Positions 19,788-42,985 of a DNA stretch of 54,367 nucleotides are shown one piece after another. The notes under the pieces are model-generated. The model worked only from the letters and a program-made list of their open reading frames with translations, had not been told where the DNA came from and did no database searches. Position 1 is the first letter of the stretch, and the number at the start of each line of letters is the position of its first letter. The position numbers and the translations under genes were made by a program. Where the stretch lies: positions 1 through 54,367 of the IMG/VR virus record IMGVR_UViG_2531839448_000005. The stretch is one strand, 5' to 3'. Source of the stretch: a virus. Its lineage: Duplodnaviria; Heunggongvirae; Uroviricota; Caudoviricetes.

Positions 19788-20127
19788 GCTCGTCCTCTTC
19801 CTCTGTTTCCGGTGGATTTCTGCGGCGACTTACCGGGTCAAAACCCAGCAAAGAAGCCATTTTGATCATTATTCTTTCAGCGTCAGCCTTTGCGCTCAGG
19901 GCGGGGTTTCTGCTCTCGCTGCCCTGACTGTTAACAATGCTGAACCCGCGCGTGGCAAGGTCTTCGACGGCTTTGCGGTATATGGAGTAGTTAACGCAAT
20001 ACAGCTCCAGATTGCTCCAGTCGGCGGGGGTAAGGTCTTCCCGTCCGGAAAGCTGGCGCGATTTTTCCTTCCACTGCCTGACCGCGATTTCATCCAGGTA
20101 AGCGGGGGCTTTTGGTGGTCTTGCCAT
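19771..20127 (-). CDS. terS: terminase small subunit (P27-like)
   Basis: start MARPPKAPAYLDE; homologous in outline to the resident terS at 33682-34164. Confidence 0.7.
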   Translation of the reverse strand: MARPPKAPAYLDEIAVRQWKEKSRQLSGREDLTPADWSNLELYCVNYSIYRKAVEDLATRGFSIVNSQGSESRNPALSAKADAERIMIKMASLLGFDPVSRRRNPPETEEEDELDRLA

Positions 20128-20246
20128 GTTCTTTTTTCGCCCAATTATTTTCAAAAAAATTCCCGTGCACAAAAATTTGAGGAGGCGGTCGGTGTCCGGC
20201 AGGGACGGTTTTGTCCTGAAAACCTCCCCCACCCCCTCTGACGGCC

Positions 20247-20423
20247 TCACCAGCGATTGCGAAAACATTCCATGACCTCGCGGTCACGGTCGGTTAATCG
20301 CTTCGCTGTGGTGCGTTCTGTGCGCCCTGTCCTGTTGGCTTTGTGCCCTGTCTCCTGTGTCTTCCATAAGTCACGCTGCCTTATCAGTCCACGTATCAGC
20401 CTGTTTTGCTCCTGTTCAGTCAT
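20247..20423 (-). CDS. hypothetical small protein
   Basis: 58-codon frame between HNH and terS; weak. Confidence 0.2.
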   Translation of the reverse strand: MTEQEQNRLIRGLIRQRDLWKTQETGHKANRTGRTERTTAKRLTDRDREVMECFRNRW

Positions 20424-20856
20424 CATCGCCATACATCCAGTCGTTACGGTGTGCCGCCCGTTCTTCCTGCTCGCGATACATACCCGCCTTACGGTTCGCT
20501 TTCGTGGCTGGATCTTCCCGTGTTGTCTTACGGTTATGGCACGTCTGGCACAATGCCTGGTGGTTCCACTCAGGCCAGAAGAGAACATCACCGCCGCCAT
20601 TGATGGGAATGATGTGATCCACCACAAGAGCTGGCGTATAAATCCCCTTAGCCAGACAACGCACGCATAACGGATTTTTGCTCAGGTACAGGGCGCGGTA
20701 TTTGTCCCACTGTCGGGAATACCCGCGCGCGCGGCGGTGTCCCCGTCTGGCATCCTCTGCACGCCATGCAGCCCGCCTGTGATCTTCGCACTTGCCGGAC
20801 TTCACGCGCTTATTACAGCCCGGCTCAGTGCATCGCCTTAATGGTTGCCACGGCAT
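20416..20856 (-). CDS. HNH endonuclease
   Basis: paired CxxC motifs plus HNH-like core DHIIPINGGG...NHQALCQTCHNRK. Confidence 0.8.
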   Translation of the reverse strand: MPWQPLRRCTEPGCNKRVKSGKCEDHRRAAWRAEDARRGHRRARGYSRQWDKYRALYLSKNPLCVRCLAKGIYTPALVVDHIIPINGGGDVLFWPEWNHQALCQTCHNRKTTREDPATKANRKAGMYREQEERAAHRNDWMYGDDD

Positions 20857-21155
20857 CAGTACACCCCTACATCACGATAAACCGACCAGAGCGCAGAAAT
20901 AGCCATAGGCAGTTCAGACTGCTCCACAGGTGAAACCGCTTCCCTGTTCTCGTACAGGAAAGCGATGTACATCAGGCAACCAACACGTATTGCCGGGGTA
21001 AATTCCAGCCCGTCTTCAAAACGTTTCCCGATATGCTTCTGGCAGGCTTCCAGCGCCGCATCGGTATACATTTTCAGAAGTTCGCCCTCACCTGAGAAGT
21101 CATCAAGGCGAAGATGTGCCCTGACTTCATCAGGTGTAATTTTTTCTTCACTCAT
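20856..21155 (-). CDS. head-tail connector protein (gp6-like)
   Basis: start MSEEKITPDEV; about 100 aa; similar in outline to the resident connector. Confidence 0.55.
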   Translation of the reverse strand: MSEEKITPDEVRAHLRLDDFSGEGELLKMYTDAALEACQKHIGKRFEDGLEFTPAIRVGCLMYIAFLYENREAVSPVEQSELPMAISALWSVYRDVGVY

Positions 21156-22362
21156 CTTTTTCACCTTTAATTTCCACCGTCTGCTTCCATGCCTGGCTGA
21201 ACTCGTCACCACCTTCACGCGGCGGCATCCCCTCACGTTCGCGGGCTTCGTTCGGATTCATGATCCCGTTCTTAATCCCTTTCTCATACGTGGCGTAACG
21301 CTCGGTTGGAGTAGCGCGCAGTAAATCGGCTGAATCAAACTCAACCAGATAACGGGTACCAGGTATGGGAGAAGCCACCAGCAAAGCGGCCTTAATTTGC
21401 TGTTCGAAGTTCGCCAGCCATGGGCGCATTGTCATGGTCAGAAACGCGCGGCTTGCCTCACTGAAATTGCTGTAGGTGCTGTTGCTGTATTCCTGAAGAA
21501 AAATCGGCGACACGTTGAACATCCGGGCGATGTCTTCAATGGAGAAGCGACGGGAGGCCAGCCATTCTGCATCCTGGTTACTCATCCCCAGTTGCTTGTA
21601 ATCCATACCCCCTTCAAGGATTGGCGTTTTTCCGGCATTTTTCGCCCCCTTGTAGCGTTCCAGGGCGTCTAATGCCTGTTTACCTTTCACGCCGTCCAGC
21701 CATTCGCCTGACGTGATAATCCCTGCCGCCATCATGCCATCTTTCATAATGCTGGCTCCGTGACGCTGTTGAGCAAGGCCAAGCCCCAGCGCCTCACGGC
21801 AAATCGTGACAGGGGAGCGCCCCAGAAAGCCATCATCCGAGGCATAGCGGAGATGCAGAACTTCTTCCTGCAAATACGTGCGCACCGTTCCTGTATAGGG
21901 TTCGGTGATGGTATAGCGGTATTTGTGTGCGCCAGTGCGTTCCGGTACAACACACCCCGGCGCATAAGGATGAAGTGATTTTGGCTGACCGTCCCGCCCC
22001 CACTCAATAACCGCATAGGCGTTACCGTTCAGCAGGCAGTGACGCATCATTGTGCGTTTAAACTGGTAAGGTGTCTGGCACGAATTAGGCTGCTCATTCA
22101 GCAGAATATCGACCGGGTGACTGTCCAGCCATTCCCGCGCCTCCCTGCCCTTGTCATTGCGTACCAGATACAGATAACACGGCATCGTGGCCACCGCCTC
22201 AGCGATGACAGAAACCGCGTTCATCACAGCAGGCAATGATTCAGCCGTCCCGGCAGAAACATATTCTCCGGATCCGGTATTCGGTACGCCGGACAGCGCC
22301 AGAAAATCATCAATGGACAGGTTACGCAGATCGCTTTTTTTACGACTAAAAGGCCACCACAT
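21148..22362 (-). CDS. portal protein
   Basis: about 405 aa from MWWPFSRKK; pattern resembles the resident portal. Confidence 0.75.
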   Translation of the reverse strand: MWWPFSRKKSDLRNLSIDDFLALSGVPNTGSGEYVSAGTAESLPAVMNAVSVIAEAVATMPCYLYLVRNDKGREAREWLDSHPVDILLNEQPNSCQTPYQFKRTMMRHCLLNGNAYAVIEWGRDGQPKSLHPYAPGCVVPERTGAHKYRYTITEPYTGTVRTYLQEEVLHLRYASDDGFLGRSPVTICREALGLGLAQQRHGASIMKDGMMAAGIITSGEWLDGVKGKQALDALERYKGAKNAGKTPILEGGMDYKQLGMSNQDAEWLASRRFSIEDIARMFNVSPIFLQEYSNSTYSNFSEASRAFLTMTMRPWLANFEQQIKAALLVASPIPGTRYLVEFDSADLLRATPTERYATYEKGIKNGIMNPNEAREREGMPPREGGDEFSQAWKQTVEIKGEKDE

Positions 22363-22363
22363 A

Positions 22364-22924
22364 TCACAACCCCGCCAGTTCAGCCCAGCGATGACGATTA
22401 TTTCCTGTCGGGCGTAATTCAGGGTGCTGTGCAAACAACGAACGGTGGGCAATCTCCACGCCGGATTCGGGATAAGCAGGCATCGACGTTATCGTGATTT
22501 CACGGAGTTCTGCGGCGGTAACAGTGCGCAGATACGGTTTTTGCGCGATATTCCACTCTTCGCATAATGCGCGAAAGCCAAAGCTCATTCCTGTAATGTC
22601 GCCACGCTCCACCAGCGTAAGCACATCTTTTCCAAGCTGGGTATCAGGCGGTGTCAGTTCAAAACGTAGCCCGGTGTTGTCCTCAGTCAGTACCAGTGTT
22701 CCGGATTTGGTGCGCCCCAGCAGTCGGGTATAGTCATGCTCATACAGGCAGCGCACATCATTACCCGCCGCCAGATAGTCAGCAAAAGCCCCCGGCGTGA
22801 ACTGTTCGCGGAATTCGTCCCAGATAATTTCTGAAAGGCTGTTCCAGCGAACGGCATACCCCACCAGCTTTTTATTGCTGGCGGTCAGTTCAGATGTGCG
22901 GATTTCAAAATCGGTGTTTTTCAT
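22364..22924 (-). CDS. prohead protease (HK97 / peptidase U35-like)
   Basis: 186 aa; GYAVRW, YEHD and GMSFGF motifs. Confidence 0.7.
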   Translation of the reverse strand: MKNTDFEIRTSELTASNKKLVGYAVRWNSLSEIIWDEFREQFTPGAFADYLAAGNDVRCLYEHDYTRLLGRTKSGTLVLTEDNTGLRFELTPPDTQLGKDVLTLVERGDITGMSFGFRALCEEWNIAQKPYLRTVTAAELREITITSMPAYPESGVEIAHRSLFAQHPELRPTGNNRHRWAELAGL

Positions 22925-22978
22925 CGGTGTACTCCATAAAGCTGAAAAAGGAGGCCGCAGCCTCCTCCTTACTCATGA

Positions 22979-24148
22979 CTAGCCAGCTTTCATTTCCAGA
23001 ATTTTGATGGCGTTTGAATCCACCACACCACCGCCCAGATATTTATCCGTGTGGACCTTGTAGAATCCGGGTTCAGTAATGTTGTCCGGTCGGGTGCGAA
23101 TCCCTGTTACATGATCAACGATGAAATAACCACGACTGAAATCGCCAACCGCTAGCGGTGCTTTTCCTGCGCCGATGTCCGGCATGGACTCCAGGCAGAA
23201 AACAGGACGACCAAGCAACATATCCGGCGCACCTTCTTTAAGGCTGTCGCGCCAGATATAATCGCCATTCTCATTTTTCAGCTTCTGTAGTGTCCCTGCC
23301 GTGCCCGAGTTCATCACCCAGACGGCATTTTTGCGGTATTTCGCTTTCAGCTTGTAGAGAATGTCGATCAGTTCGTCCGCTGTAATGGCGGTTCCACTTG
23401 CCGCTACCACTTTTTCAATGGTGCCAAAAGCGCGGGTTTTGTCACTGGTCGCCGCACGGGTGTAAGCCATGAAGCCTTTCGGCTTGCCGTTACCGTCGCC
23501 ATTAACAAAATCATCCTCTTCGGTGCTGGCGAACGTGTCGGCAATTTCGGAGGATAACCAGCCCAGAATATCCACCTCTGAAAAATCCAGGATTTCCTGC
23601 GTGGTTTTCGGGTAGGCGTAGATCGGATTCAGCTTGATGGTTACACGTTCAATTTTCGGGGTGTTGGTTTCACTACGTGCGCTGCCTTCTGTGCCTCGTC
23701 CTACAGTTGCGCCGCCAGTGGAAACCAGTTTCTGAAACTCATTTGATTTTGCGGTCTTCACGGTCGCGATCACGCGCATAACACTGTCATCCTGTAGCTG
23801 GCGCATGACTTCGCGATCAAGCTCAGGAATTACGGTATATCCGCCATCCCTGCCGCTGTCAGTGCTGGTGGACAGTGATCGCACATCTCCGGTTACGATG
23901 TAGTTACGCAATTCATCAGATGATAATTTCTGGATGCCCGTTCCTGGCTTGCTGCGTTCTTCATCAGCCACAGACTCGAGGCGGTAAATTTCTGTGTCGA
24001 GGGAATCGGCTTTTGCACGCAGTTCATCAAACTGTTTGCCCTCGTCATCGTTCAGGCTGCGGTTTTCACTGTCGGCTTTTTCCAGCAGGGATCGCATCTG
24101 GTTTTTCAGGGCGGTTTTTTGCTGGCGGAGTTCGATTAATTTCTTCAT
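22979..24148 (-). CDS. major capsid protein, HK97 family
   Basis: 389 aa; coiled-coil N-terminus; GDGNGKPKGFMAY and DSNAIK motifs parallel the resident capsid protein. Confidence 0.85.
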   Translation of the reverse strand: MKKLIELRQQKTALKNQMRSLLEKADSENRSLNDDEGKQFDELRAKADSLDTEIYRLESVADEERSKPGTGIQKLSSDELRNYIVTGDVRSLSTSTDSGRDGGYTVIPELDREVMRQLQDDSVMRVIATVKTAKSNEFQKLVSTGGATVGRGTEGSARSETNTPKIERVTIKLNPIYAYPKTTQEILDFSEVDILGWLSSEIADTFASTEEDDFVNGDGNGKPKGFMAYTRAATSDKTRAFGTIEKVVAASGTAITADELIDILYKLKAKYRKNAVWVMNSGTAGTLQKLKNENGDYIWRDSLKEGAPDMLLGRPVFCLESMPDIGAGKAPLAVGDFSRGYFIVDHVTGIRTRPDNITEPGFYKVHTDKYLGGGVVDSNAIKILEMKAG

Positions 24149-24422
24149 GAAGGTTTTCTCGTATTGGTTAAGATTCAGGACGTGAAACCAACACGGAGGG
24201 AGCGCCGCCCGACACTCTCGGCATCTCGCAGATCAACCCGGCATCGCGCAGGGGGTCAGGCGGCATTGTGGCGGCTCACGTCTGAGTGCCACACGCCAAC
24301 ATATACATAAAAATCAGTATGTAAACATCAGCCAGAATCACCGAACAACCTGGAACAACCACGAACAAATAATTTACAAAACCTGAAAAAAAGACCTGGA
24401 GAAAATCCAGGCCTTTATCGCT

Positions 24423-24671
24423 TTATTGTTTCACTGGATCCCGCATTCTGCGTCTTATTTTCCACAGATATTCGATCATCGCTTCCACCTGCTCACGATT
24501 GGTTGCGAAAATTTCCCCGGTCAGTGAGCTGCGCAGAAAATCATGATGATCCACAACAAACAACGCATCGGAAGAAAGCAGACGGCGATATTTTTTTGCT
24601 GTCGTGGTTTCCAGATCATCAAAACCATGAAACTTTTTATGTTGCTGGACTTCTTCAAATGTCACTGGCAT
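24423..24671 (-). CDS. hypothetical protein
   Basis: 82 aa ORF. Confidence 0.35.
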   Translation of the reverse strand: MPVTFEEVQQHKKFHGFDDLETTTAKKYRRLLSSDALFVVDHHDFLRSSLTGEIFATNREQVEAMIEYLWKIRRRMRDPVKQ

Positions 24672-25204
24672 GTATCCCCCTTTGCCGCCCGGCGCTGGCG
24701 CTTGTGCTTCTCATTCAGCGCCATCAGCCGCGTTTCTGCCTCCTGCTGTTCCTGTGGTGTCACTTCCCCACATGGCTGGCCTTTCAGGTCGTATCGTACC
24801 CCACCAGCAACCAGGGCGCGGTAATAGCGCGGAGACTGCGCATAAGATGCCAGCGTCGCACGTAATGCCCCCGGCCCGAATGCCAGCCCCCTGACGGCGA
24901 GATCCTGCATCAGGTCGTCGAATATCCCCACCTTAAGCGGCTTCGGTGCTTCCCTGTTGAATAAGTCAGGCCACATCTCAGTGAGGCGGTTAACGCGCCT
25001 GCGGTTTTTGCGCTGGCGTTTGGTCATATGCCGCCACGGTGTCACCCCTGTGGGCTGCCCTTTGCGGCTCTGCTGTGCGTTCTGATTGCCGGGTATCACT
25101 TTATGCGCCGATGTGGTTTTATCCCGCTCTTGCGCCGCCTGCGTCGTTTTCTGCGGCGTGCCGTAAATGCCTTTCGGTTTTCGGTTAATGGTCAGCTTTG
25201 TCAT
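24662..25204 (-). CDS. ProQ/FinO-domain RNA-binding protein
   Basis: LKVGIFDDL...ALRATLASYAQSPRYYRALVAGGVRYDLKGQPCGEVT aligns by eye to the E. coli ProQ N-terminal domain as recalled. Confidence 0.6.
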   Translation of the reverse strand: MTKLTINRKPKGIYGTPQKTTQAAQERDKTTSAHKVIPGNQNAQQSRKGQPTGVTPWRHMTKRQRKNRRRVNRLTEMWPDLFNREAPKPLKVGIFDDLMQDLAVRGLAFGPGALRATLASYAQSPRYYRALVAGGVRYDLKGQPCGEVTPQEQQEAETRLMALNEKHKRQRRAAKGDTCQ

Positions 25205-25368
25205 GCCTTCCCCTGTAATTACTCTGTTCGCTGTTGTGAATTAAAACGGTATGTTATCCCCGTACAGGTCATCGTGCTGGCCTGTCTGTTGTTTTGCCCT
25301 GTTCAGTGCGTCAGTGGCCTGCCCCTGTTGGCCTTTTTTGCCGCCCGGTCGCGCCGTTCTCGCACTGA

Positions 25369-25665
25369 TTACGCTGTCTGCGATGACCTGCCAGCCCTGC
25401 CGCGTTTCGCCGTTCTGCCCTGTCCACTGCTTACCTGCATGTTACCCGCCACGCTCACCAGTTCGCCTTTGCGGTGTTTTGCCAGTGCGTCGGCCTGTCT
25501 GCCAAACGCCAGGACGGATAACCACATCGTCGCCGTTCCGTCATCTGCCTGGCTGCATGGCAGGGGAACCGCCATACTCGCCATCGCCATTTGTGTTCCC
25601 TTGCTGGTGGTCTTTAACTGCGGGTCAGCCACCAGCCGCCCGTAAGCCGCTATCTGTGCTGTCAT
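25369..25665 (-). CDS. SSB-like OB-fold protein (tentative)
   Basis: 98 aa; pattern GRLVADPQL...WLSVLAFGRQADAL...GELVSVAGNMQV resembles an SSB core. Confidence 0.35.
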   Translation of the reverse strand: MTAQIAAYGRLVADPQLKTTSKGTQMAMASMAVPLPCSQADDGTATMWLSVLAFGRQADALAKHRKGELVSVAGNMQVSSGQGRTAKRGRAGRSSQTA

Positions 25666-25728
25666 GCTGTCTGCTCTCCGGTTTTAACGTTGATGGTTAC
25701 GCTTGTTTACACCCTTACGGTGAAATTC

Positions 25729-25854
25729 TGCGGGTTATAATCGCACTTTTGCGGGTTATAACTGCCGTTTTGCGGGTTACGTGCGGGTTATTGATTTCCT
25801 TTTTATTCATACAGTTAATGCACTTATATACATGATAACCCGCATAACCCGCAA
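25729..25854. repeat. iteron cluster B: 4 direct plus 2 inverted copies of TGCGGGTTA(T) flanking an AT-rich spacer; candidate replication origin
   Basis: copies at 25729, 25751, 25771, 25782 (direct) and 25835, 25845 (inverted); immediately 3' of the primase gene. Confidence 0.6.
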
Positions 25855-25875
25855 CTTTTCACCTCACACAGGGGG

Positions 25876-27999
25876 TTAATCTTCTGCCTCAGGCTGGAAC
25901 ATCAGCACGTAAAAAACATGCTGCTTCCCCCCAATTTTGCCGAGCGCCTTTTTCTTGTAACGGCGATCGTTACCCGCTTCCAGCATTCCGGCAGCACTCA
26001 ACGCGCGGGCAAAGTGAGACGGATTAAATCCCTGTGCTATCTCACCCTCAAATACATGCGGGAACGTGTAAAAACGGAACTCGTCATCTTCGTTTCTGAT
26101 ACTCCCCTTTCTGTATCCGGCAAGTTCTTTAATCGATAAATCACGCTCGTCGGTATTGGGCCACGGAAGGTATCTGCTGAATCCGAACGACGCTAAAAAA
26201 GCTTCTGCCTGTTCAACCATCTGTTTAAATTCCCTGTTACCCGTGCCGAACTCCTTCACCCAGGCATTAAAATTATGCTGTATGGCATCGCGGCATTCCT
26301 GCTCATCCCAGCCAGTAACATGACCTGAAAGCACAAGCGCGGCCTCCAGTATGGCAAATCGCTCCCCCACACGGTGAACCTGTTCGCCGTAGCTCTCCGG
26401 TATCAGGTTGCGCCACCGCTCACGGCATGTCCTTACCGTGTCCTTTGCCTCCTGCTGGTGTTCTGCCAGCCATTTAACCCACTCACGACCCGCCGCCCCG
26501 TGATTTTCTGTCCAGGCATCCTTTAACGCGTCTGCGTGCGCCTTTCCGGTGCTGTATTCGTGAAATTGCGTGGCTTTTTCCATCGGAACGTTAAGCAGGC
26601 GGACAAGCTGCCCCGCTTTGACTTTTATCCCCTCCGTTTTGAGGAATGTCTCAACGTCCATTTCTCCGGTGCTGATTGCCACCGTGCGCCAGTGTTTGAT
26701 CTCCCTGTTGCCGCCGTCCTTCGCCCCCTGTAATTTCCCCGAACCGTTAAACAGCGTATAGGCTGACGTGGACACCTCCCGCGCGTTTCCGGCCTGGCCT
26801 ATTTCATCCAGGGGTAAAAGCCCGTCATTGTGTGCCTCTGCTTCGTTGGCGATACCTAACGCTGTGCCGTACCAGGTCAGCCGCTGCGCGTCCGGCTCTC
26901 CCCATAAACTTGATGCGATGTTCTGTGTGGTGGTTTTCCCTGCCGATGACTGTTCGAAAAGATGTACCCCGAAGCCGTCAGCGCCCACCAGCCCGATTAA
27001 TGGTGCGGATAACGATACCGCCACACCCAGCATCATGGACGGATTACCACCAGCCAGCCGCGCAACGGTATCGCGCCAGCCCTCCGCCGTTCCTGCCACG
27101 GAATAGCCATTAACAGCAGCCGTTTTTCCGGTAAACAGGACTGGCTTTTCGCAATCACCAATGACCGAACCGTCCGGCATGATGTACGCGCCAAAATGCC
27201 AGCCCGTTGTTGTGCTTAACTGCCATTCCTCATGGCTTCCGCTTAACTGCATCCAGTCAGCCAGGATAGCCCTGTATTTACCGTTGGTTGTTACGTTCAG
27301 TCCGTGGTCTTTCAGCAACCGCCAGCCGTCACGGTCGCCAATGCCACCGCACGGAACCGCCATTGTGATGACTTCATGGTTTGCTAATTTTTTCCAGCGC
27401 ATCACGCGGTAATGCTCTTTACCGATTGTCCCCGTTCCCAGTAGTTCAAGCGGGGAACATAACCACGTCTCAGGCCGGATAATTTCGCCTGACTGCTTAT
27501 CCACTTTTGGCGTTACCCAGAAAACACCATCGGCGCGACTTTCAACGCGGGGCTTTAATTCATCATCGCCCTGGATTTCTGTGATTTTTTTCTTTAAGGG
27601 CAACACCAGACTTTCCCCGCGCTCGTATTCGTCTTTGAGGCGAGGCAACTGGTCGGATAAATCCGCCGGGCTGATGTCAGTTATCCCCGCGTATTCGTAT
27701 ACGGTCTTCACGCCAGCCACAGCCAGCAACGTGACGATCTGTGTAAGGCTACGTTCAGTGATGTGCCCTGCGCGGTAAACACGCACACACTGACGGCTAT
27801 CATCAATAATTTGATAACCGGTAATATCTTTCAGGTGTTCATCTGACAGAACGACAGGCGGCACATTGTCGGCGGCAATATGCTTACCTGCCCATTCCTG
27901 CCACTCTTTCGCATGGCTCCACGCATCACTACCCGCAAAGATGATAACCTCCGTCATTTTGTCGGCTGGCTGGTGCTTTAAGTTTGGTGCGCGCTTCAT
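25876..27999 (-). CDS. primase / replication protein (P4 alpha-like, DUF927-type)
   Basis: 707 aa; central Walker-like GEPDAQ...SSAGKTT region; adjacent iterons. Confidence 0.6.
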   Translation of the reverse strand: MKRAPNLKHQPADKMTEVIIFAGSDAWSHAKEWQEWAGKHIAADNVPPVVLSDEHLKDITGYQIIDDSRQCVRVYRAGHITERSLTQIVTLLAVAGVKTVYEYAGITDISPADLSDQLPRLKDEYERGESLVLPLKKKITEIQGDDELKPRVESRADGVFWVTPKVDKQSGEIIRPETWLCSPLELLGTGTIGKEHYRVMRWKKLANHEVITMAVPCGGIGDRDGWRLLKDHGLNVTTNGKYRAILADWMQLSGSHEEWQLSTTTGWHFGAYIMPDGSVIGDCEKPVLFTGKTAAVNGYSVAGTAEGWRDTVARLAGGNPSMMLGVAVSLSAPLIGLVGADGFGVHLFEQSSAGKTTTQNIASSLWGEPDAQRLTWYGTALGIANEAEAHNDGLLPLDEIGQAGNAREVSTSAYTLFNGSGKLQGAKDGGNREIKHWRTVAISTGEMDVETFLKTEGIKVKAGQLVRLLNVPMEKATQFHEYSTGKAHADALKDAWTENHGAAGREWVKWLAEHQQEAKDTVRTCRERWRNLIPESYGEQVHRVGERFAILEAALVLSGHVTGWDEQECRDAIQHNFNAWVKEFGTGNREFKQMVEQAEAFLASFGFSRYLPWPNTDERDLSIKELAGYRKGSIRNEDDEFRFYTFPHVFEGEIAQGFNPSHFARALSAAGMLEAGNDRRYKKKALGKIGGKQHVFYVLMFQPEAED

Positions 28000-28310
28000 T
28001 TTGCCTTTCCCCGTTCACGAATAATTTCACGTACTGCCTTAATGCGTTCCATTCCTGTAACGCGCATGATTCTGTCGATGTCGCTTAATTCTGCTGGTGG
28101 TGCTTTACTTACCAAGGTGAACTCCCTGTCAAAGCGCATATGTGACGACACGCAGGGATGCGCATAACCTTCGCGGATATAGGTCACACGAAAATCATCG
28201 ACGGTTTTGATCGTTATCGTGCTGCCGTATTTATCCTGGAAAATATCGCCGGGGCGGATTTCAGGCCGAGCGGGGCCGCTGGCAGTAAAGCCAGAATTTT
28301 TCTTTTTCAT
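27996..28310 (-). CDS. hypothetical protein
   Basis: 104 aa ORF overlapping the primase start. Confidence 0.4.
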   Translation of the reverse strand: MKKKNSGFTASGPARPEIRPGDIFQDKYGSTITIKTVDDFRVTYIREGYAHPCVSSHMRFDREFTLVSKAPPAELSDIDRIMRVTGMERIKAVREIIRERGKAK

Positions 28311-28315
28311 GTTTT

Positions 28316-28564
28316 TTACTCCAGAGGCAGCTTTTTAGCGGCGAGCTCAATATCAGATGTCAGAGAAACCTGTGTATTTGCCAGGTCTAACAACAAAGAA
28401 ATAAGAATTTCTTCTCTGCTATCGGATTTATCGGTGCTAAGGCTGTTCATCCACATATTGACGACTTCCCTGATTTTTTTCGCAGAGTGCAGGGCTTCAA
28501 ATGCCAGGTCTTCAATATCATGTTTATTTCGCATAATCGCCCCCGCCATTTTCACAATCAGCAA
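28316..28564 (-). CDS. hypothetical protein
   Basis: 82 aa ORF. Confidence 0.3.
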   Translation of the reverse strand: MLIVKMAGAIMRNKHDIEDLAFEALHSAKKIREVVNMWMNSLSTDKSDSREEILISLLLDLANTQVSLTSDIELAAKKLPLE

Positions 28565-28769
28565 TCAGGATGGCTTTTGCCTCATTCAGCGCCATATCAG
28601 CACTAAATTGCATAACAGCCAGTGAGTGAGGAACGAAAGCCCCGGCATATTCTGTTTCGCTGGTGGCGTGCTTATGCGCCTTGTCTGCGATAACAGAAAT
28701 ATCAATCAGCGCGTGCATCAGCGTTTTGATGGCTTCGGCGGCTGCGTCCGGACGGGTGTTATTGCACAT
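28524..28769 (-). CDS. hypothetical protein
   Basis: 81 aa ORF. Confidence 0.3.
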   Translation of the reverse strand: MCNNTRPDAAAEAIKTLMHALIDISVIADKAHKHATSETEYAGAFVPHSLAVMQFSADMALNEAKAILIADCENGGGDYAK

Positions 28770-29073
28770 GGCGCACCTCCTGACGAATACGGGCAGCGAA
28801 TACCATCACGCAGCCAGCCGGGGATTGCTGGCGTGCTTCCTGTTCGCTAGTGGCCTCAATGGTAATCACACGCGGTTGTGCCGTGCTCAGGGCGATAAAA
28901 CGCCAGATGTATTTATTCAGGTTGTGCGAGTCCCGCCCTTGCGGGTGTGTGGTATGATTTAACATAGCTACCTCGATAATCTTGCTATCGTTGGTGGTTA
29001 GAAGCCCGGTTAGTGTTAGCGCACTGCCGGGTTTCGTCGTTTGTATTTCAATAAAACCATTGGTGTGTTTCAT
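28759..29073 (-). CDS. hypothetical protein, first gene of the island leftward operon
   Basis: manual call: ATG at 29071-29073 inside the operator motif, 105 codons; the 393 aa track ORF is a read-through artefact. Confidence 0.35.
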   Translation of the reverse strand: MKHTNGFIEIQTTKPGSALTLTGLLTTNDSKIIEVAMLNHTTHPQGRDSHNLNKYIWRFIALSTAQPRVITIEATSEQEARQQSPAGCVMVFAARIRQEVRHVQ

Positions 29074-29150
29074 GTTATTTTGGAGTGAAACACACGTCAA
29101 GCCTTTTTTGTATTTCTTTTTTGTGTATACTGAAACACACCAAATTTGAG
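29050..29150. promoter_or_regulatory. divergent promoter region with three copies of operator-like motif TGAAACACAC / GTGTGTTTCA
   Basis: copies near 29055-29068, 29083-29096 and 29138-29150 between divergent genes. Confidence 0.5.
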
Positions 29151-29161
29151 GAGTTTCAGTT

Positions 29162-29467
29162 ATGGCGACTACCAACAAAAACGCTAAATCACAATTGACC
29201 ACCGTCAGAGTCCCCCACGATGTTATGGAGGGCATGGAATCCGTAAAACTGGACGGCGAAAGCAACGCCGGATTCATAGTAACCGCCATGCGCGGTGAGA
29301 TCGCCCGCCGCCAGGCAGAAGGAAGCGGAGAAAATCCCCTGGTTTCTTCGCTCGATGCACTGGCGCAGGTGGAAAAAATTGGAGTCAAGGCTGCCGAGGA
29401 GATCGGGCAACTCGTCACCGTCGCGCGTGAAGAACTCCAGCGACGCAAGGTCAAAGAGCAGGAATAG
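29162..29467 (+). CDS. hypothetical protein, candidate island regulator
   Basis: 101 aa ORF divergent from the island operon, directly downstream of the operator triplet. Confidence 0.4.
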   Translation: MATTNKNAKSQLTTVRVPHDVMEGMESVKLDGESNAGFIVTAMRGEIARRQAEGSGENPLVSSLDALAQVEKIGVKAAEEIGQLVTVAREELQRRKVKEQE

Positions 29468-29524
29468 CCACTATCAGCGCCATAGTTTGAGGAACGCAGG
29501 CGCATTGCTTTACAGGACAGCACC

Positions 29525-29704
29525 ATGAGCGACACAGAATCAACCAAAACACCATCACCAACTCGTAAGAGACGACGCAAAAATATAGCGCATGAACATG
29601 AATCAGAAAGATTCGCACCTTGTTCGTTTGCTCTTGAGAAATTCCTTAAAGAGCACAGGAAAAAGCTCTCGTTGCAAACCTTGGAACGAACCAAATCTGA
29701 CTGA
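29525..29704 (+). CDS. small basic protein
   Basis: manual 59-codon ORF MSDTESTKTPSPTRKRRRKN; below the track length cutoff. Confidence 0.25.
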   Translation: MSDTESTKTPSPTRKRRRKNIAHEHESERFAPCSFALEKFLKEHRKKLSLQTLERTKSD

Positions 29705-29770
29705 TCACATTGCCCACCAGCCGCAAATGTGGCATTGTTGGTGATGCTTTTGTTTTCCCTTGTTCCCACT

Positions 29771-29800
29771 GGCGACCCTTTTGCGGTCGCCTTTGTTTTG
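29771..29800 (+). terminator. rho-independent terminator
   Basis: GGCGACC/GGTCGCC stem followed by TTTGTTTTG. Confidence 0.6.
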
Positions 29801-29892
29801 CCTGTTATCCGGCAATAGTGGCGCTTCGTCACCTGTCTGATATAATTCCACAGCTTATATTCATTTTTTGCGCAGTAGGTTAATTGTTCGCA

Positions 29893-29926
29893 AGGGCGCT
29901 CCGGCAACGGGGCGCTTTTTGTTTTT
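29893..29926 (+). terminator. rho-independent terminator
   Basis: GC-rich hairpin followed by TTTTTGTTTTT. Confidence 0.5.
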
Positions 29927-30084
29927 ACCCACCAGCACAATAAAAATCTTCATTTTCCATTTTTGTAAAATTTCATGCTTTCCGGACGACTGGTCATATG
30001 TCATTTTTTAGCAGAAGATTTTGCCTTGCTGGTGGGTAGCTTCCCGGTCAACACGATGTACCGTATAATCAACACCGCGTGTGG

Positions 30085-30663
30085 TTACTGAATACGCTCA
30101 CCAAAGTAAAACTCAGGCTGGTATTCACGTATCAGCCTTTTTTCTTCTTCCTCCAGCTCACGCTTTTTGCGCTTACATGCCTGTAGCTCCCTCCCCTTCT
30201 CACTGGCACTTATCTGGTATTGCTCTTTGCGGCGGGAAAAATCCTGTAATGCGCCCCACGGGATACCATAAGCCCCCGTTTTTCTGATACCCGGTATCAC
30301 ATTTCTGAATACCCAGTTACTGAAACGATGAGCAAATGTGCCAGGCGTCGTTGCTTTGCGGCTGCGGGCTATTAGTTTGTAGAAACCTGACTCGGAGATA
30401 ATGCTCATATTCTGATTTCCTCCGGGGGTGTAAGTTAAATTTACTCCCTTTTCGTCATCATCAAGCATCTGCAACGCCGTACGCGAATTGGTCAATTCCA
30501 GCGCAGCACAAACATCCTTTGCAACAAACCACGGATCGCCGTTTAGATACACCACACGAACATCCACGCCATCAAAGCGCAGAACGACCAGATCACGAAT
30601 ATCACAGAATTTTTTCACATGACGTGCGTCACCCTTGCCCGTCACGGCAATATTTTTATTCAT
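30085..30663 (-). CDS. Bro-N domain protein (antirepressor-like)
   Basis: N-terminal Bro-N-like pattern RVVYLNGDPWFVAKDVCAAL...ESGFYKLI...FSNWVFRNVIPGIRKTGAYG. Confidence 0.65.
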   Translation of the reverse strand: MNKNIAVTGKGDARHVKKFCDIRDLVVLRFDGVDVRVVYLNGDPWFVAKDVCAALELTNSRTALQMLDDDEKGVNLTYTPGGNQNMSIISESGFYKLIARSRKATTPGTFAHRFSNWVFRNVIPGIRKTGAYGIPWGALQDFSRRKEQYQISASEKGRELQACKRKKRELEEEEKRLIREYQPEFYFGERIQ

Positions 30664-30720
30664 TGCTTTTTACCTCACATACAAAAAACCCCGCATTGCG
30701 TGGTGCGGGGTTGTCGGTAA

Positions 30721-30999
30721 TTACTTATTGGCGTTTTTGTATGGGCTGTTTACTTCCTTTACTCCTGGCGGATGCATAACCCACCAGAGCACATCAGAGA
30801 GCAACCAGGAAACAGACACTTTCCCTAAATGAGCACGAGCAGGAAATGCTCCCTCCTGTTCAAGTACCCAACGTCTGCTTCTTGAAAGCCCGGTACGATT
30901 GGCACACTCATGTTCGCGTATACGGCGATCATACGGTTCGCCATGATCTTTCAGAATCTGAATGCGTTCTTCGGGTGTAGGATAAATAAATTTTTGCAT
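30721..30999 (-). CDS. AlpA-like small regulator (tentative)
   Basis: start MQKFIY; small basic protein adjacent to alpA. Confidence 0.4.
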   Translation of the reverse strand: MQKFIYPTPEERIQILKDHGEPYDRRIREHECANRTGLSRSRRWVLEQEGAFPARAHLGKVSVSWLLSDVLWWVMHPPGVKEVNSPYKNANK

Positions 31000-31062
31000 A
31001 AAAATATCACCTATAAAAAAACCCGCCAAAAGACGGGTTGATTATATCTCATTTAATTTAGC

Positions 31063-31296
31063 TCAGGGTTTCCATTCACCTTTTACCCATTCCAGCACCT
31101 CAGATAAGCGCCAGACTTTTGTTTGTGGGCCAATACATATTTTTCGTGGAAATTTTCCTTCCTTTTCAAGTAACGATCTGTGTCTCCTGCCAAGAGCGGT
31201 TAACCATGCACATTCATCCTCCTTAATCATCCTGTCGATTGTTTCATCATTTTCAAGTTCTTCACGCGTAACTATTTGAATCATTACTGTCACCAC
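31063..31296 (-). CDS. alpA: AlpA-family transcriptional regulator
   Basis: 77 aa ORF directly upstream of int; small basic winged-helix-like protein. Confidence 0.55.
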   Translation of the reverse strand: MVTVMIQIVTREELENDETIDRMIKEDECAWLTALGRRHRSLLEKEGKFPRKICIGPQTKVWRLSEVLEWVKGEWKP

Positions 31297-31329
31297 TAAT
31301 TTGCTTATTCAGATAGTCGTACCACCAGT

Positions 31330-32483
31330 TCATAGCTTCTTTTTTCTGTCCATATACTGGCTTCTGTTATAAACCCCGGCAACACCGCCTAATGTGTGCC
31401 CAAGCAACTGTTCAACCACATTATGTTCAAAACCATGATCACTTAGTTTTGTGGCAAACACTCTTCGCATATCATGCGCCGTCCATTTCTCCGAGTGTTT
31501 CATCCTTTTCCATGTCTTACCGATAGTTACGCTTGCCGTACACTGACGCATATCAAACCCAATCACATTTTCTTTGTTACCTGTTATTTTTTTAACGTAA
31601 CTAACCAGTTAAACATGCCATCAGGAATCGGTCTGATTATTTCCCTGCCATTTTTGCTATGATCAGCGGGAACGCGCCATAATTTCTTATCAAAATCCCA
31701 CTCTACCCAGGACGACAGTAATACTTCTGACAGTCGACAACCAAAAACTACCAGGAAACGTAAAATAATTCGGTTTTCATATGATAATTCGTGATTGTCA
31801 TAATCAGTATTAATACTTCGCCATAAATCTCTGATTTCATCATCTGTTAAAACCCTGCTTCTTCGCGCAGACTTTTTTCCCACATCACAGACCTCAAGAT
31901 CATCAATTTCATGACTAATCGCGTATTTTCTTACCCTACAAAATTTAAGCGCCTGTTTTGATATACGCAACAAAGCTCCGGCCTGTACAGGTGCTACTTT
32001 TTTTATTTTGTCAAAACACTTAATCCACATAGATATAGAGCAATCACTAAGTGGTACATGACCAATCACCGGATAAATATGTTTACCAAAGCACTGCCTG
32101 ATATGTTCTGCTCCCCTACGCTTATCCATTGCATAATTATCAAGCCAGTATTCAAGTGCCTCACGAACGGTAACAGGTTGCAAGGTGGCTTCCCGTTCAA
32201 TTTTTATCTGAATCCGTGGATCTCTGCCCTCCGCAAGCCAGGTTCGACACTGATCGCGCATCTCTCTCGCTGATTTGAGACTCAGATCAGGATATTTTCC
32301 AAGTGTCAGCCAGATGGGCGCGGTTCCCCTTCCCGCCAGTCTGTAAAAGAAAACAAAACTAACACATCCGTATTTACTGACCCGTACCGAAAGCCCGTTA
32401 CCATCAGCGATGGTTTCCTGCCTCTCACTCCTGCGCCCAAGCAGGGAACGAAGTTTTTTATCGCTCAGTTTGTTTAGCGCCAT
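31330..32483 (-). pseudogene. int: tyrosine integrase (P4-like), frame-broken at an A7 tract near 31580-31590
   Basis: 311 aa N-terminal ORF plus 78 aa C-terminal ORF carrying HxxR...Y catalytic region (HDMRRVFAT...GVYNRSQY); adding one A rejoins the frames. Confidence 0.8.
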
Positions 32484-32503
32484 GTGATTTATAACCCGTT
32501 TTT

Positions 32504-32524
32504 GCAATACACAGTGCAATACAC
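32504..32524. repeat. tandem GCAATACAC arm-type repeat (copy 2)
   Basis: GCAATACACAGTGCAATACAC just upstream of the int start. Confidence 0.5.
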
Positions 32525-32654
32525 AAATGATGAAAACAGCCAGAACCTTCCAGAAAAAACAAAAACGACGAACAAGAAAAAATCTTTTTCTTTCATTTGG
32601 TTACTAAAAAAATCAGGACAGGTCGCACTGTTGTTACGGCGTGATGTTACTTTC

Positions 32655-37419: not shown

Positions 37420-37494
<75 letters not shown>

Positions 37495-37497
37495 ATA

Positions 37498-37573
<76 letters not shown>

Positions 37574-37575
37574 AC

Positions 37576-37652
37576 TGGACCGCCACCGGGGACTCGAACC
37601 TCGCACACTCAACTTAAAGGGTTGACGCTCTTTCCTGATGAGCTAGTGGCGG
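37576..37652 (-). tRNA. tRNA-like, anticodon loop CCUUUAA (putative UUU/Lys, non-canonical C33)
   Basis: 77 nt; 7 bp acceptor stem, TTCGAGT T-loop, CCA end; one mismatch in the T stem. Confidence 0.45.
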
Positions 37653-37653
37653 C

Positions 37654-37729
37654 TGGTGGCCCTTGCTGGATTTGAACCAGCGACCTGGCGATTATGAGTC
37701 GCTCGCTCTCACCACTGAGCTAAAGGGCC
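37654..37729 (-). tRNA. tRNA-Ile2/Met (anticodon CAU), ileX/ileZ-like
   Basis: 76 nt cloverleaf, anticodon loop CUCAUAA, close to E. coli ileX as recalled. Confidence 0.8.
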
Positions 37730-40606: not shown

Positions 40607-40999
40607 CTACTGCCCTGTTTTAACGAAGTTTTTAAAGGAAACAACTGCCTGATAGGGGTTTGGTTGACAGCCAAACATATTATCGCAAAAAGGCTTGATG
40701 AAAATTCTTGAGGATCCATCTTCATTTGGCATTTTACTCACTTGATAAGCGAGGAATGGACTATTTGGAGAGGGATTATAAGTGGAAATTAGCGTGTCTG
40801 TCGCCGTTTGAATTTTCCATGAGGAATTATTAGCCAACCAGAATTGCGCTCGTTTCCAATAAAAGTCACATTGCTTTTCATCATTACATGTTAGTGGCTT
40901 CATTGCTTCTGCTTTCAACGCTGGATCGACCTTTGCTGCACACCCTCCCAACATTACTGTTGCAATCATTACACCTGCGACTAAAACAAGTTTCTTCAT
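40607..40999 (-). CDS. lipoprotein, unknown function
   Basis: signal peptide with lipobox LGGC; Cys-rich mature part. Confidence 0.5.
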   Translation of the reverse strand: MKKLVLVAGVMIATVMLGGCAAKVDPALKAEAMKPLTCNDEKQCDFYWKRAQFWLANNSSWKIQTATDTLISTYNPSPNSPFLAYQVSKMPNEDGSSRIFIKPFCDNMFGCQPNPYQAVVSFKNFVKTGQ

Positions 41000-41142: not shown

Positions 41143-41298
41143 TTACTCCTCAGGTTCGTAAGCTGTGAAGACAGCGACCTCCGTCTGGCCGGTTCGGATT
41201 CGTACCTCGCAGAGGTCTTTCCTCGTTACCAGTACCGTCACTATGACGGTTAAACAGATGACGATCAGGGCGATTAACATCGCCTTTTGCTGCTTCAT
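41143..41298 (-). CDS. hokD: Hok/Gef-family type I toxin
   Basis: MKQQKAMLIALIVICLTVIVTVLVTRKDLCEVRIRTGQTEVAVFTAYEPEE, near-identical to HokD/RelF as recalled. Confidence 0.85.
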   Translation of the reverse strand: MKQQKAMLIALIVICLTVIVTVLVTRKDLCEVRIRTGQTEVAVFTAYEPEE

Positions 41299-41558
41299 AG
41301 CCTGCTTCTCCTTGCCTTTCGGCACGTAAGAGGCTAACCTACATTTGTGAGACATAGATTGGGCCTCAGATTAATGTTAAGCGTCTTGCAGGACGCGTAA
41401 TGTTAACTGGGGCTTTTCTCTATCTGCCTTTTGGTGTTCATGCCCGAGGCAGATAGCCTCAAGCACCCGCAGCAATTCTACTTAACTCTCCTTTTCCCGC
41501 AAACCGTTTTTGCTCACCATGATAAGTCGTTATTGTAATTAATTGACATAACGATTAG

Positions 41559-42455
41559 TCAAAACTCAATTTTTTGCGCTGGTCTTGCATTTAATATCCA
41601 ACATTCTTGATGAGTGTGGTGCGCAATCAATAAATTTTGTAGTTGTGTTTTTTTGGCTTTATAATTTAACTCATTTGTCGTATCAATTATCCAATTCCCT
41701 GTCCCCGAAGAAGCCAGTGCCATGAGTTTATTACACTCTGCATGCATATTAATTATCTCACCAAACATATCTGTTTTTGTTTTTTTATTCACAAAGTTAG
41801 TAAAAATACCAGCATGCTTATAAGAATCCATTACAGTATAACGGCCATCACCATCTATATCAGAAGGTTTTGACATCCATTTAAAAACATGAAGGAGAAA
41901 AATATTGGCCGTCCAAGGAAATTCATCTCCATCAAGAAACGTTTCAGTAGTCGCTATACTCAGACTCTCAGTAAGATTAGTCGCCCCAATTAAAACAACC
42001 TCAGGCTCGCCATCCTTTCTTTTACCCGCCCCAACAAAATTGAACGTACCTGCATAACACTGTCCAAAATAAACAATAGCATTGTTTAAATTAGGTGCTC
42101 CTTTTAAAGCCTTGAGAAGTTGATGAGGAGTAATAGGATTTTTTGCATCCAGTCCTTGTGGGCAACCATGACCAGTAACAAACATTACTATGTTATTGTA
42201 GTTATTATCACGCAAGTCATTAAAGAAATCTGCTGATGCTTTTGACGCATAAGGATACTTCGAGGCTGATGAAAAAAAATCATCAAAATTCCTGTTAGGG
42301 CTGTCAATATATATTGATATGTCTCGTGGATTTATACCGGCCTTCTCAAGACATAGCACGCCAAAAACAATATCCAAAACGTGGCGCGATTCAACTTCTT
42401 CTTTAGAACAAGGCAAAAACATAACCCATTTCGTACGCTCAGACCTAAGGCTCAT
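41559..42455 (-). CDS. caspase-like (clan CD) peptidase-fold protein (tentative)
   Basis: beta-strand then GHG (IVMFVTGHG) and beta-strand then QC (IVYFGQCYAG) about 37 residues apart, resembling a His/Cys dyad; AT-rich gene. Confidence 0.35.
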   Translation of the reverse strand: MSLRSERTKWVMFLPCSKEEVESRHVLDIVFGVLCLEKAGINPRDISIYIDSPNRNFDDFFSSASKYPYASKASADFFNDLRDNNYNNIVMFVTGHGCPQGLDAKNPITPHQLLKALKGAPNLNNAIVYFGQCYAGTFNFVGAGKRKDGEPEVVLIGATNLTESLSIATTETFLDGDEFPWTANIFLLHVFKWMSKPSDIDGDGRYTVMDSYKHAGIFTNFVNKKTKTDMFGEIINMHAECNKLMALASSGTGNWIIDTTNELNYKAKKTQLQNLLIAHHTHQECWILNARPAQKIEF

Positions 42456-42495
42456 ACATATCCTTATGATTCGAATGTTTTAAGTTAAAATTTTG

Positions 42496-42789
42496 TTAAT
42501 ATTTAGGAGGCATTGCATTACTGAAAGATGGTGGCTTTGGTATATCAATAAAGTAAAAAAGCTCATCGATGCTTAAATGTTCAGTAATTTGGGTGGACGT
42601 TATTTGCCCTCTTTCATTCAAACCAAATATTTCATCGCCAGTTTTCAGAAAAAACACCACTTCAAATGTTGTGGTTACTTCATGCGCATAAGATTTGAAC
42701 AGCATCCACTGCCCGAGATTCACACACTCTTTTACTGAATCAGAAGTATCAGGTAACGCTGACGACTGTAGCCCTGTGAATTTCATCAT
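42496..42789 (-). CDS. hypothetical protein, upstream partner of the caspase-like gene
   Basis: 97 aa ORF 40 bp upstream on the same strand; AT-rich. Confidence 0.4.
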   Translation of the reverse strand: MMKFTGLQSSALPDTSDSVKECVNLGQWMLFKSYAHEVTTTFEVVFFLKTGDEIFGLNERGQITSTQITEHLSIDELFYFIDIPKPPSFSNAMPPKY

Positions 42790-42985
42790 TTATCCTTATG
42801 AATCCGCATACGACATTCTAACAACATGGTATTTTTACGAACACAAACTGTGTGGGCGAGTTACCGACCACACAGAGAAAATATAACTTTGTGCCTCCGT
42901 TTTCGTCAACCCCAGCGGCAAATCGAATACACCACCAGCGCCACCGCCATTGCAATTCCTACCGTTGTGAATGCTTCAGGCCAGG

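What the first reader, a model, noticed from the sequence alone, without database searches (positions are those of the whole stretch)
41559..42789. AT-rich two-gene islet: small protein plus candidate caspase-like protease, in the slot where Qin-type prophages carry relBE
A 97 aa ORF sits 40 bp upstream of a 298 aa ORF on the same strand, both with clearly lower GC than their surroundings. The larger protein has a hydrophobic strand then GHG and, about 37 residues later, a strand then QC(Y)AG, the arrangement of a clan CD (caspase-like) His/Cys dyad. It lies directly upstream of hok in a typical prophage cargo position. This is a candidate anti-phage or abortive-infection module that I cannot assign to a named system.
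Basis: inference. Interest (0 to 1): 0.75.

Follow-up and report, generated by a model that had tools for sequence, protein, structure and literature searches.

The report
Legumain-like protease with small partner
A 1.4 kb AT-rich cassette in an E. coli prophage encodes a caspase/legumain-type cysteine protease and a small partner protein that always accompanies it; the pair is unnamed, occurs across bacterial phyla in prophage cargo slots and beside known defence systems, and is a good candidate for a new protease-based anti-phage or addiction module.

The parts
41512..42909 (-). The whole mobile cassette (1,398 bp, GC 0.368): promoter-like site, small partner gene, and peptidase gene.
   Evidence: It is absent from the otherwise collinear site in E. 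coli cq9, where the flanks abut within 2 bp. It is present in only 13 of 5,426 complete E. coli genomes. Its GC ranks 2nd lowest of 1,060 windows.
42880..42909 (-). Sigma-70 promoter-like site (TTGACG-18-TATATT, 10 of 12 matches) exactly at the upstream edge of the cassette.
   Evidence: The number of such sites in the region is no higher than in shuffled sequence, so this is only suggestive.
42496..42789 (-). Small partner protein (97 aa as listed; probably 96 aa starting at 42786). It has a beta-rich core and a flexible C-terminal tail.
42517..42534 (-). Codons for the invariant tail motif P86-x-S88-L/F-S-N91 of the partner. This is the candidate site that engages the protease active site (P1 = Asn91).
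   Evidence: Asn is present in 122 of 122 full-length homologs. Column entropy is 0 bits at the Asn and 2.6-3.3 bits straight after it. The tail after the Asn is 3-13 aa, never shorter than 3. The tail has low pLDDT in the model of the partner alone.
42456..42495 (-). 40 bp spacer carrying the peptidase Shine-Dalgarno sequence (CATAAGGATA, the same context as before the small gene). No terminator-like site, so the genes are probably co-transcribed.
41559..42455 (-). 298 aa cytoplasmic clan CD cysteine peptidase, closest to legumain/C13, with a C-terminal helical hairpin and a terminal beta-strand.
42168..42170 (-). Codon of the catalytic His96, in invariant G-H-G after strand 88-93.
42057..42059 (-). 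Codon of the catalytic Cys133, in invariant G-Q-C-x-A-G after strand 125-130.
41826..41861 (-). Invariant D199-x-D-G-D-G-x-x-T-x-x-D210 loop between helix 185-195 and helix 208-249. It has helix-loop-helix geometry like an EF-hand/DxDxDG site and may bind Ca2+ or another divalent cation.
   Evidence: The invariant residues come, the flanking helices, and retention in distant phyla. Metal binding is inferred from the motif only.
41143..41355 (-). Context, not part of the cassette: the hokD/mok type I toxin locus immediately downstream.
   Evidence: The hok flank is retained in empty-site genomes.

Best explanation
The islet is a self-contained, horizontally mobile two-gene operon. The downstream gene encodes a cytoplasmic clan CD cysteine peptidase with an intact His96/Cys133 dyad, most similar to legumain (family C13). 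The upstream gene encodes an obligate partner of about 95 aa. I propose that the partner docks on the peptidase through its beta-rich core and places its flexible, invariant PxSLSN tail in the active site, with Asn91 at P1, as a pseudosubstrate or substrate. This would keep the peptidase latent. A trigger such as phage infection, loss of the partner, or a cation signal sensed by the invariant DxDGDG loop would release the peptidase to cleave cellular or phage proteins. The outcome would be growth arrest or abortive infection that protects the prophage and the lysogen population. Status of each step: the fold, the catalytic residues, the obligate pairing, the mobility and the tail conservation pattern are shown. 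The tail entering the active site, the toxicity, the trigger and the defence role are inferred.

For: Obligate pairing. The partner lies -9 to 65 bp upstream in every intact locus where the partner model detects it. In the deepest-branching loci (Cyanobacteria, Bdellovibrio, Myxococcales, Alphaproteobacteria) an upstream ORF of about 85-115 aa with the same N-terminal signature is seen by eye. Consecutive locus tags pair the two genes in several genomes.

Tail. Asn is present in 122 of 122 partners. Entropy rises from 0 to about 3 bits immediately after the Asn. The tail is 3-13 aa, and it is disordered in the model of the partner alone.

No signal peptide is evident in either protein (sequence).

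Conflict context. The cassette fills the relBE slot upstream of hokD. Copies lie in lambdoid prophages, inside a Yersinia myovirus tail cluster, next to a Pseudomonas prophage integrase, in a Delftia prophage and in a Burkholderia integrase/resolvase island. Copies abut SIR2-HerA, GajA, Type I HsdR and Drt8. The cassette is rare and patchy, in 13 of 5,426 E. coli genomes, with three diverged alleles in the same slot.

Possible cost. Two independent IS1 insertions disrupt only the peptidase gene.
Against: No phenotype can be tested here. PADLOC 2.0 has no model for either protein. Only about 4 of 29 loci carry a high-confidence known defence gene within 6 kb, many copies sit among housekeeping genes, and no background rate was computed. 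The peptidase is absent from all 50,697 phage records and 72,556 plasmids. The S1 pocket is only partly legumain-like, because E187 is replaced by invariant G131, so Asn specificity is unproven and invariant Asp82 is an alternative P1. The PxSLSN tail is ambiguous or missing in the deepest branches, for example Melainabacteria and Alphaproteobacteria. No model of the complex could be made. IS1 prefers AT-rich DNA, so the two disruptions are weak evidence.
Confidence: 0.5

Rival explanations
1. Pro-effector model, with the same logic as bacterial gasdermin systems. The small protein is the effector, kept inert by its short C-terminal tail. The peptidase is the activator: it cleaves after Asn91 (or Asp82) on a trigger, releasing an active core of about 90 aa.
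For: The substrate-like gene lies upstream of the protease gene, as in bacterial gasdermin operons (my knowledge of Johnson et al. 2022, not checked here). Conservation stops exactly at the Asn, the tail varies from 3 to 13 aa, and it is never shorter than 3 aa, as expected for a scissile bond that needs P' residues. The partner's core is conserved more widely than its tail.
Confidence: 0.17
2. A pure addiction or stabilisation module of the type II toxin-antitoxin kind. A labile small partner neutralises a stable protease toxin, maintaining the prophage or island, with no specific anti-phage role.
For: The architecture is a small gene upstream and a larger gene downstream, tightly spaced. It occupies the same slot as relBE and sits beside hokD. 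It travels on integrative elements. The peptidase gene is disrupted while the small gene stays intact in 2 of 13 E. coli copies.
Against: The partner has no recognisable DNA-binding or antitoxin fold. The module is absent from all 72,556 plasmids, where addiction modules are usually plentiful. Several copies lie next to genuine defence systems. Many toxin-antitoxin systems also act in defence, so this rival overlaps with the best explanation.
Confidence: 0.15
3. Transpeptidase/tagging model. Like peptide asparaginyl ligases and GPI8, the enzyme forms an acyl-enzyme at the partner's Asn91 and transfers the partner onto an amine of a target protein or lipid.
Against: No acceptor can be identified. 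The partner's fold is not ubiquitin-like. The residues that distinguish ligases from hydrolases could not be mapped. This is the least parsimonious reading.
Confidence: 0.06
4. A lysogenic-conversion or phage-benefit function unrelated to conflict. For example, a protease that processes a host or phage protein during the prophage life cycle, or an inactive pseudo-protease scaffold.
For: The module is carried as a moron in several prophages, once inside a tail gene cluster. No defence model matches either protein.
Against: The same pair occurs outside prophages, among housekeeping genes and in defence islands, in many phyla. It is absent from all sequenced phage genomes. The dyad and its surrounding motifs are invariant, which argues against a pseudo-enzyme. 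There are no signal peptides, so a secreted virulence factor is unlikely.
Confidence: 0.1

Closest known systems
Legumain / asparaginyl endopeptidases, peptide asparaginyl ligases and GPI8 (MEROPS family C13, clan CD)
   Different: The protein scores below Pfam's C13 threshold, 12.8 against 22.8 bits. Legumain's S1 residue E187 is an invariant Gly here, and the triad residue N42 is Glu/Asp. The protein is cytoplasmic, with no signal peptide and no LSAM prodomain. Instead it has a C-terminal helical hairpin, an HQECWILN strand and a DxDGDG loop. It depends on a separately encoded partner.
Type IV Thoeris (TIR protein plus caspase-like protease; Rousset et al., bioRxiv 10.1101/2024.10.24.620036)
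   Same: It is a two-gene bacterial immune system whose effector is a clan CD caspase-like protease. That protease is held inactive until infection and then degrades cellular proteins (abstract).
   Different: The partner there is a TIR enzyme that makes N7-cADPR, and the protease is arginine-specific. Here the partner is a 95 aa protein of unknown fold with no TIR domain. PADLOC models do not match either protein.
Bacterial gasdermin-protease operons
   Same: A substrate gene lies upstream of a caspase-like or other protease gene. Activation removes a short C-terminal inhibitory peptide (my knowledge, not checked here). The partner here shows a comparable pattern of conserved core plus short tail.
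   Different: The partner is about 93 aa rather than about 250 aa, and it has no gasdermin fold. The tail that would be removed is only 3-13 aa.
relBE (type II toxin-antitoxin) in the Qin prophage of E. coli K-12
   Same: It occupies the identical genomic slot and orientation immediately upstream of hokD. It also has a small upstream gene and a downstream effector gene.
   Different: There is no sequence or fold relationship. RelE is a ribosome-dependent mRNA interferase and RelB is a DNA-binding antitoxin. Here the effector is a cysteine peptidase, and the partner has no recognisable DNA-binding fold.
Cystatin E/M and the prolegumain activation peptide (protein inhibitors that place an Asn-containing loop in the legumain active site)
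   Same: The concept is the same: a protein ligand presents a conserved Asn to a C13-type active site as a substrate-like inhibitor (my knowledge). This matches the inferred role of the PxSLSN tail.
   Different: The partner does not have a cystatin fold. The interaction itself is not demonstrated.

Membership tests
Clan CD cysteine peptidases (caspase-hemoglobinase fold) | Alpha/beta/alpha sandwich fold shared with caspases, legumain, metacaspases, gingipains and separase. | tested here: met
Clan CD cysteine peptidases (caspase-hemoglobinase fold) | Catalytic His, then Cys, each just after a hydrophobic beta-strand (H-G and A/Q-C motifs), conserved across the family. | tested here: met
   G95-H96-G97 follows strand 88-93, and G131-Q132-C133 follows strand 125-130. 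Both are invariant in 40 homologs and retained in all 31 species loci.
Clan CD cysteine peptidases (caspase-hemoglobinase fold) | Peptide-bond hydrolysis that depends on the Cys. | not testable with these tools
   This needs purified protein or C133A genetics.
MEROPS C13 / Pfam PF01650 (legumain, GPI8) | Score above Pfam's gathering threshold for Peptidase_C13. | tested here: not met
   The score is 12.8 bits against a cutoff of 22.8, E 0.088, over residues 82-138 only. A few homologs carry faint precomputed PF01650 hits.
MEROPS C13 / Pfam PF01650 (legumain, GPI8) | N-terminal strand followed by the conserved (N)-x-R-H-x-x-D motif that contributes to the S1 pocket and the triad. | tested here: met
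   R24-H25-x-x-D28 are invariant and align to legumain R44-H45-x-x-D48. The position of triad residue N42 is Glu/Asp here. H25 becomes Phe in some distant members.
MEROPS C13 / Pfam PF01650 (legumain, GPI8) | Acidic S1 residues (legumain E187 and D231) that read the Asn carboxamide; Asn-specific cleavage. | tested here: inconclusive
   The E187 position is an invariant Gly131. Specificity cannot be tested here.
Known anti-phage defence systems (PADLOC-DB 2.0) | Match to a model of a known or candidate defence protein. | tested here: not met
   There were no hits at E <= 1 for either protein. NCBIfam also has none.
Anti-phage defence system (generic criteria) | Carried on mobile elements or in cargo hotspots, and co-located with known defence systems. 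| tested here: inconclusive
   The module occupies prophage cargo slots in at least 5 unrelated prophages or islands. It abuts SIR2-HerA, GajA, Type I HsdR and Drt8 in about 4 of 29 loci. Other loci are housekeeping. No background rate was computed.
Anti-phage defence system (generic criteria) | Protection against phage when expressed in a naive host. | not testable with these tools
   This needs a cloning and plaque assay.
Type II toxin-antitoxin system | Bicistronic operon with a small upstream antitoxin and a downstream toxin. | tested here: met
   There is a 40 bp gap, a shared Shine-Dalgarno context and no terminator. The architecture is conserved across phyla.
Type II toxin-antitoxin system | Antitoxin with a DNA-binding domain (HTH, RHH, AbrB and similar) and an intrinsically labile region. 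| tested here: not met
   There are no Pfam or NCBIfam hits and no structural match. A flexible tail is present, but no DNA-binding fold is recognisable.
Type II toxin-antitoxin system | Toxicity of the downstream protein, neutralised by the upstream one. | not testable with these tools
   There is only an indirect hint: two independent IS1 insertions in the peptidase gene with the small gene intact.
Type IV Thoeris | TIR-domain signalling partner encoded with the caspase-like protease. | tested here: not met
   The partner has no TIR domain or any other Pfam or PADLOC hit. No TIR gene is conserved in the neighbourhoods.
Bacterial gasdermin system | Partner with a gasdermin fold (about 250 aa) cleaved by the adjacent protease. 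| tested here: not met

The most novel reading that the evidence does not exclude
The enzyme is not a degradative protease but an Asn-directed transpeptidase, acting like peptide asparaginyl ligases and GPI8. It would cut the partner after the invariant Asn91 and covalently attach the partner's core of about 90 aa to a target amine, for example on a phage protein. That would be an E1/E2-free protein-tagging system working in bacterial conflict.
Probability: 0.06. Interest if true: 0.9.

Novelty: new variant of a known kind. Interest (0 to 1): 0.62.

Why it matters
Caspase-family proteases have recently been recognised as effectors of bacterial immunity, in gasdermin systems, type IV Thoeris and CHAT/Craspase. 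All of those are coupled to large sensors or nucleotide signals. This would be a minimal system of about 1.2 kb with two proteins, built on the legumain (C13) branch of clan CD. That branch is otherwise known almost entirely from eukaryotic lysosomal and vacuolar enzymes, peptide ligases and GPI transamidase.

If the partner's invariant Asn tail does gate the active site, the pair offers a compact model for how clan CD proteases are kept latent in trans. It could also be a source of a new Asn-directed protease or ligase tool.

The hypothesis is easy to test. The cassette is small, it is native to E. coli, and clear point mutants are available: H96A, C133A, N91A and D82A. It would also add an entry to the list of cargo that replaces relBE upstream of hokD in lambdoid prophages.

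Tried and rejected
PADLOC, NCBIfam and PHROGs scans gave no functional assignment for either protein.

Protein-level searches of 50,697 phage records and 72,556 plasmids found no copy of the peptidase. Nucleotide search of the phage collection matched only the hok flank.

The hhalign comparison with human legumain aligned only the N-terminal 42 columns, so the S1-pocket residues after the catalytic Cys could not be mapped.

Literature searches by keyword and by RefSeq accession, plus the main text and supplements of DefensePredictor and a 2026 domain-centric E. coli screen, found no description of this pair.

Several ideas were considered and rejected:
- Secreted virulence protease: neither protein has a signal peptide.
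- Pseudo-protease: the dyad is invariant.
- Chance ORFs in AT-rich DNA: dN/dS is about 0.1 and homologs span several phyla.

A fused-chain or multimer structure prediction was considered but not run.

Full report
OBSERVATION. The 97 aa ORF is at 42496..42789(-) and the 298 aa ORF is at 41559..42455(-), separated by 40 bp, with the hok/mok ORF 203 bp further downstream at 41143..41355(-). Homologs all begin 'MK', and the Shine-Dalgarno spacing favours the second ATG, so the small protein is probably 96 aa starting at 42786. GC is 0.369 and 0.378 for the two genes, against 0.503 for the window. The cassette ranks 2nd lowest of 1,060 windows of equal size. Both ORFs are real genes: dN/dS against a 75%-identical E. 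coli allele is 0.09 for the peptidase and 0.12 for the partner.

A DISCRETE, RARE CASSETTE IN THE relBE SLOT. Megablast against 5,426 complete E. coli genomes finds the flanks in thousands of genomes but the islet in only 13. In E. coli cq9 the two flanks abut within 2 bp, which sets the cassette at about window 41512..42909, or 1,398 bp. The surrounding element is a lambdoid prophage integrated at tRNA-Ser/mtfA. Three diverged alleles (at least 99%, about 93% and about 75% nucleotide identity) occupy the same slot in different strains. Both genes share the Shine-Dalgarno context CATAAGGATA, and no terminator-like site separates them or precedes hok. A promoter-like site (TTGACG-18-TATATT) lies exactly at the upstream edge of the cassette, although the count of such sites is no higher than in shuffled sequence.

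A SMALL, SHARPLY BOUNDED FAMILY. An exhaustive HMMER scan of 1.84 billion cluster representatives finds 271 clusters at E <= 1e-3 and 236 at E <= 1e-10. Apart from some truncated fragments, the listed matches are about 250-355 aa single-domain proteins with no fusions. Members occur in Entero-, Pseudomonas-, Burkholderia-, Xanthomonas- and Vibrio-type Proteobacteria. A scan of species-representative genomes adds Spirochaetes, Clostridia, Melainabacteria, Cyanobacteria, Bdellovibrio, Myxococcales, Bacteroidota and Alphaproteobacteria. All of them retain GHG, GQC(Y/F)AG, DxDGDG and the C-terminal QExW motif.

THE TAIL MOTIF. All 122 full-length partner homologs carry the Asn at position 91, and 121 match the strict motif hyd-(Y/F)-(F/Y)-x-D82-x3-P86-x-S88-x-x-N91. 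Among those 121, 114 read exactly S-L-S-N. Column entropy is 0 bits at the Asn and 2.6-3.3 bits at the next positions. The tail after the Asn is 3-13 residues and never shorter than 3, and position +3 is mostly hydrophobic. A motif that is invariant, disordered when the protein is modelled alone, and ends in Asn, next to an enzyme whose nearest relatives are asparaginyl endopeptidases and ligases, most simply suggests a tail that occupies the active site. This is an inference. No model of the complex was possible, the S1 pocket is not fully legumain-like, invariant Asp82 is an alternative P1, and the motif fades in the deepest branches.

CONTEXT. The module rides on unrelated mobile elements, in different cargo positions:
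- lambdoid prophages in E. coli and Enterobacter;
- the middle of a myovirus tail/baseplate cluster in Yersinia;
- the integrase-proximal edge of a Pseudomonas prophage;
- a Delftia prophage;
- a Burkholderia integrase/resolvase island.

PADLOC scans covered 217 of the 311 neighbouring ORFs (within 6 kb) collected from 29 loci. They find SIR2-HerA abutting the module in Pseudomonas (E 1e-181 and 1e-278), GajA in Luteibacter (2.8e-197), Type I HsdR in Sorangium (3.8e-245), a Drt8 reverse transcriptase (4.5e-129), and also methyltransferases, a PrimPol and integrases. Other copies lie among sugar-transport or central-metabolism genes. The peptidase is absent from all sequenced phages and plasmids searched. 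In 2 of the 13 E. coli copies, independent IS1 insertions split the peptidase gene and leave the small gene intact. This hints that the peptidase is costly, with the caveat that IS1 prefers AT-rich targets.

INTERPRETATION. Four things are shown: a catalytically intact clan CD peptidase of a new C13-like family, an obligate partner encoded in trans, horizontal mobility, and the tail conservation pattern. I infer a conflict module, either anti-phage/abortive infection or addiction, in which the partner gates the peptidase through its Asn tail. The DxDGDG loop is a possible cation-sensing element. The rivals are a gasdermin-style pro-effector, a pure toxin-antitoxin addiction module, an Asn-directed tagging enzyme, and a phage-benefit function. 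They differ mainly in which protein is the effector, and simple genetics and mass spectrometry can separate them.

NOVELTY. Neither protein matches PADLOC 2.0, NCBIfam 20.0 or a Pfam family above threshold. PHROGs lists the partner as function unknown. Keyword, accession and supplement searches found no description of the pair. The nearest characterised system, type IV Thoeris, couples a caspase-like protease to a TIR signalling enzyme and differs in partner, trigger and specificity. The PADLOC release dates from 2023 and the paper library is incomplete, so a very recent naming cannot be excluded. I rate the module a new variant of a known kind: a protease-effector conflict system.

Noticed in passing
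window 17617..32654 (junctions at about 17603-17616 and 32655-32668): Compared with E. coli 14EC029, the window carries a roughly 15 kb insertion inside the lambdoid prophage's terminase large-subunit gene, with a 14 bp overlap or duplication at the junctions. The insert encodes an integrase (31584..32519), a DUF927 primase-like protein (25876..27999), its own capsid (22979..24148) and portal (21148..22452), and a 553 aa ORF (18126..19787) that I did not scan and only guess is terminase-like. It looks like a capsid-forming satellite (PICI-like) or a small prophage that has disrupted the helper prophage's TerL.
   Followed up: partly
L050 (E. coli STEC409) about 1000-1790; L051 (E. coli 0-4) about 1150-1980: Two independent IS1 insertions (IS1A and IS1B, at different sites and in opposite orientations) interrupt the peptidase gene while the small partner gene stays intact.
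   Followed up: partly
window 40607..40999 (-): An AT-rich (GC about 0.40) 130 aa ORF with a lipoprotein-type signal and lipobox (MKKLVLVAGVMIATVMLGGC) and no Pfam hit. It lies between hokD and DUF968, in the position of rem in K-12 Qin, and is probably another moron.
   Followed up: partly
window 37420..37729 (-): A cluster of four prophage tRNA genes (Gly-TCC, Thr-TGT, Lys-TTT and a CAT-anticodon tRNA). ARAGORN calls the last one Met, while RefSeq annotates it as Ile in the reference strain. The cluster lies between Q and the lysis genes.
   Followed up: no
P0125 (E. coli, 126 aa) and P0139 (56 aa): These are chimeric or truncated remnants of the partner gene in other E. coli strains. P0125 fuses a DUF7167-type N-terminus to partner residues from about 30 to the end. 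This suggests recombination or deletion events at the cassette border in lambdoid nin regions.
   Followed up: no
L030 (Caballeronia fortuita) 9926..10815: A degraded copy of the module. The peptidase is 5'-truncated and frameshifted near its C-terminus, and the partner gene is missing.
   Followed up: no
window 41531..41556: An AT-rich inverted repeat (CGTTAT-N14-ATAACG) lies just after the peptidase stop codon and just inside the downstream cassette junction, with no T-run following it. Its role is unknown; it could be a weak terminator or a recombination site (sequence).
   Followed up: no
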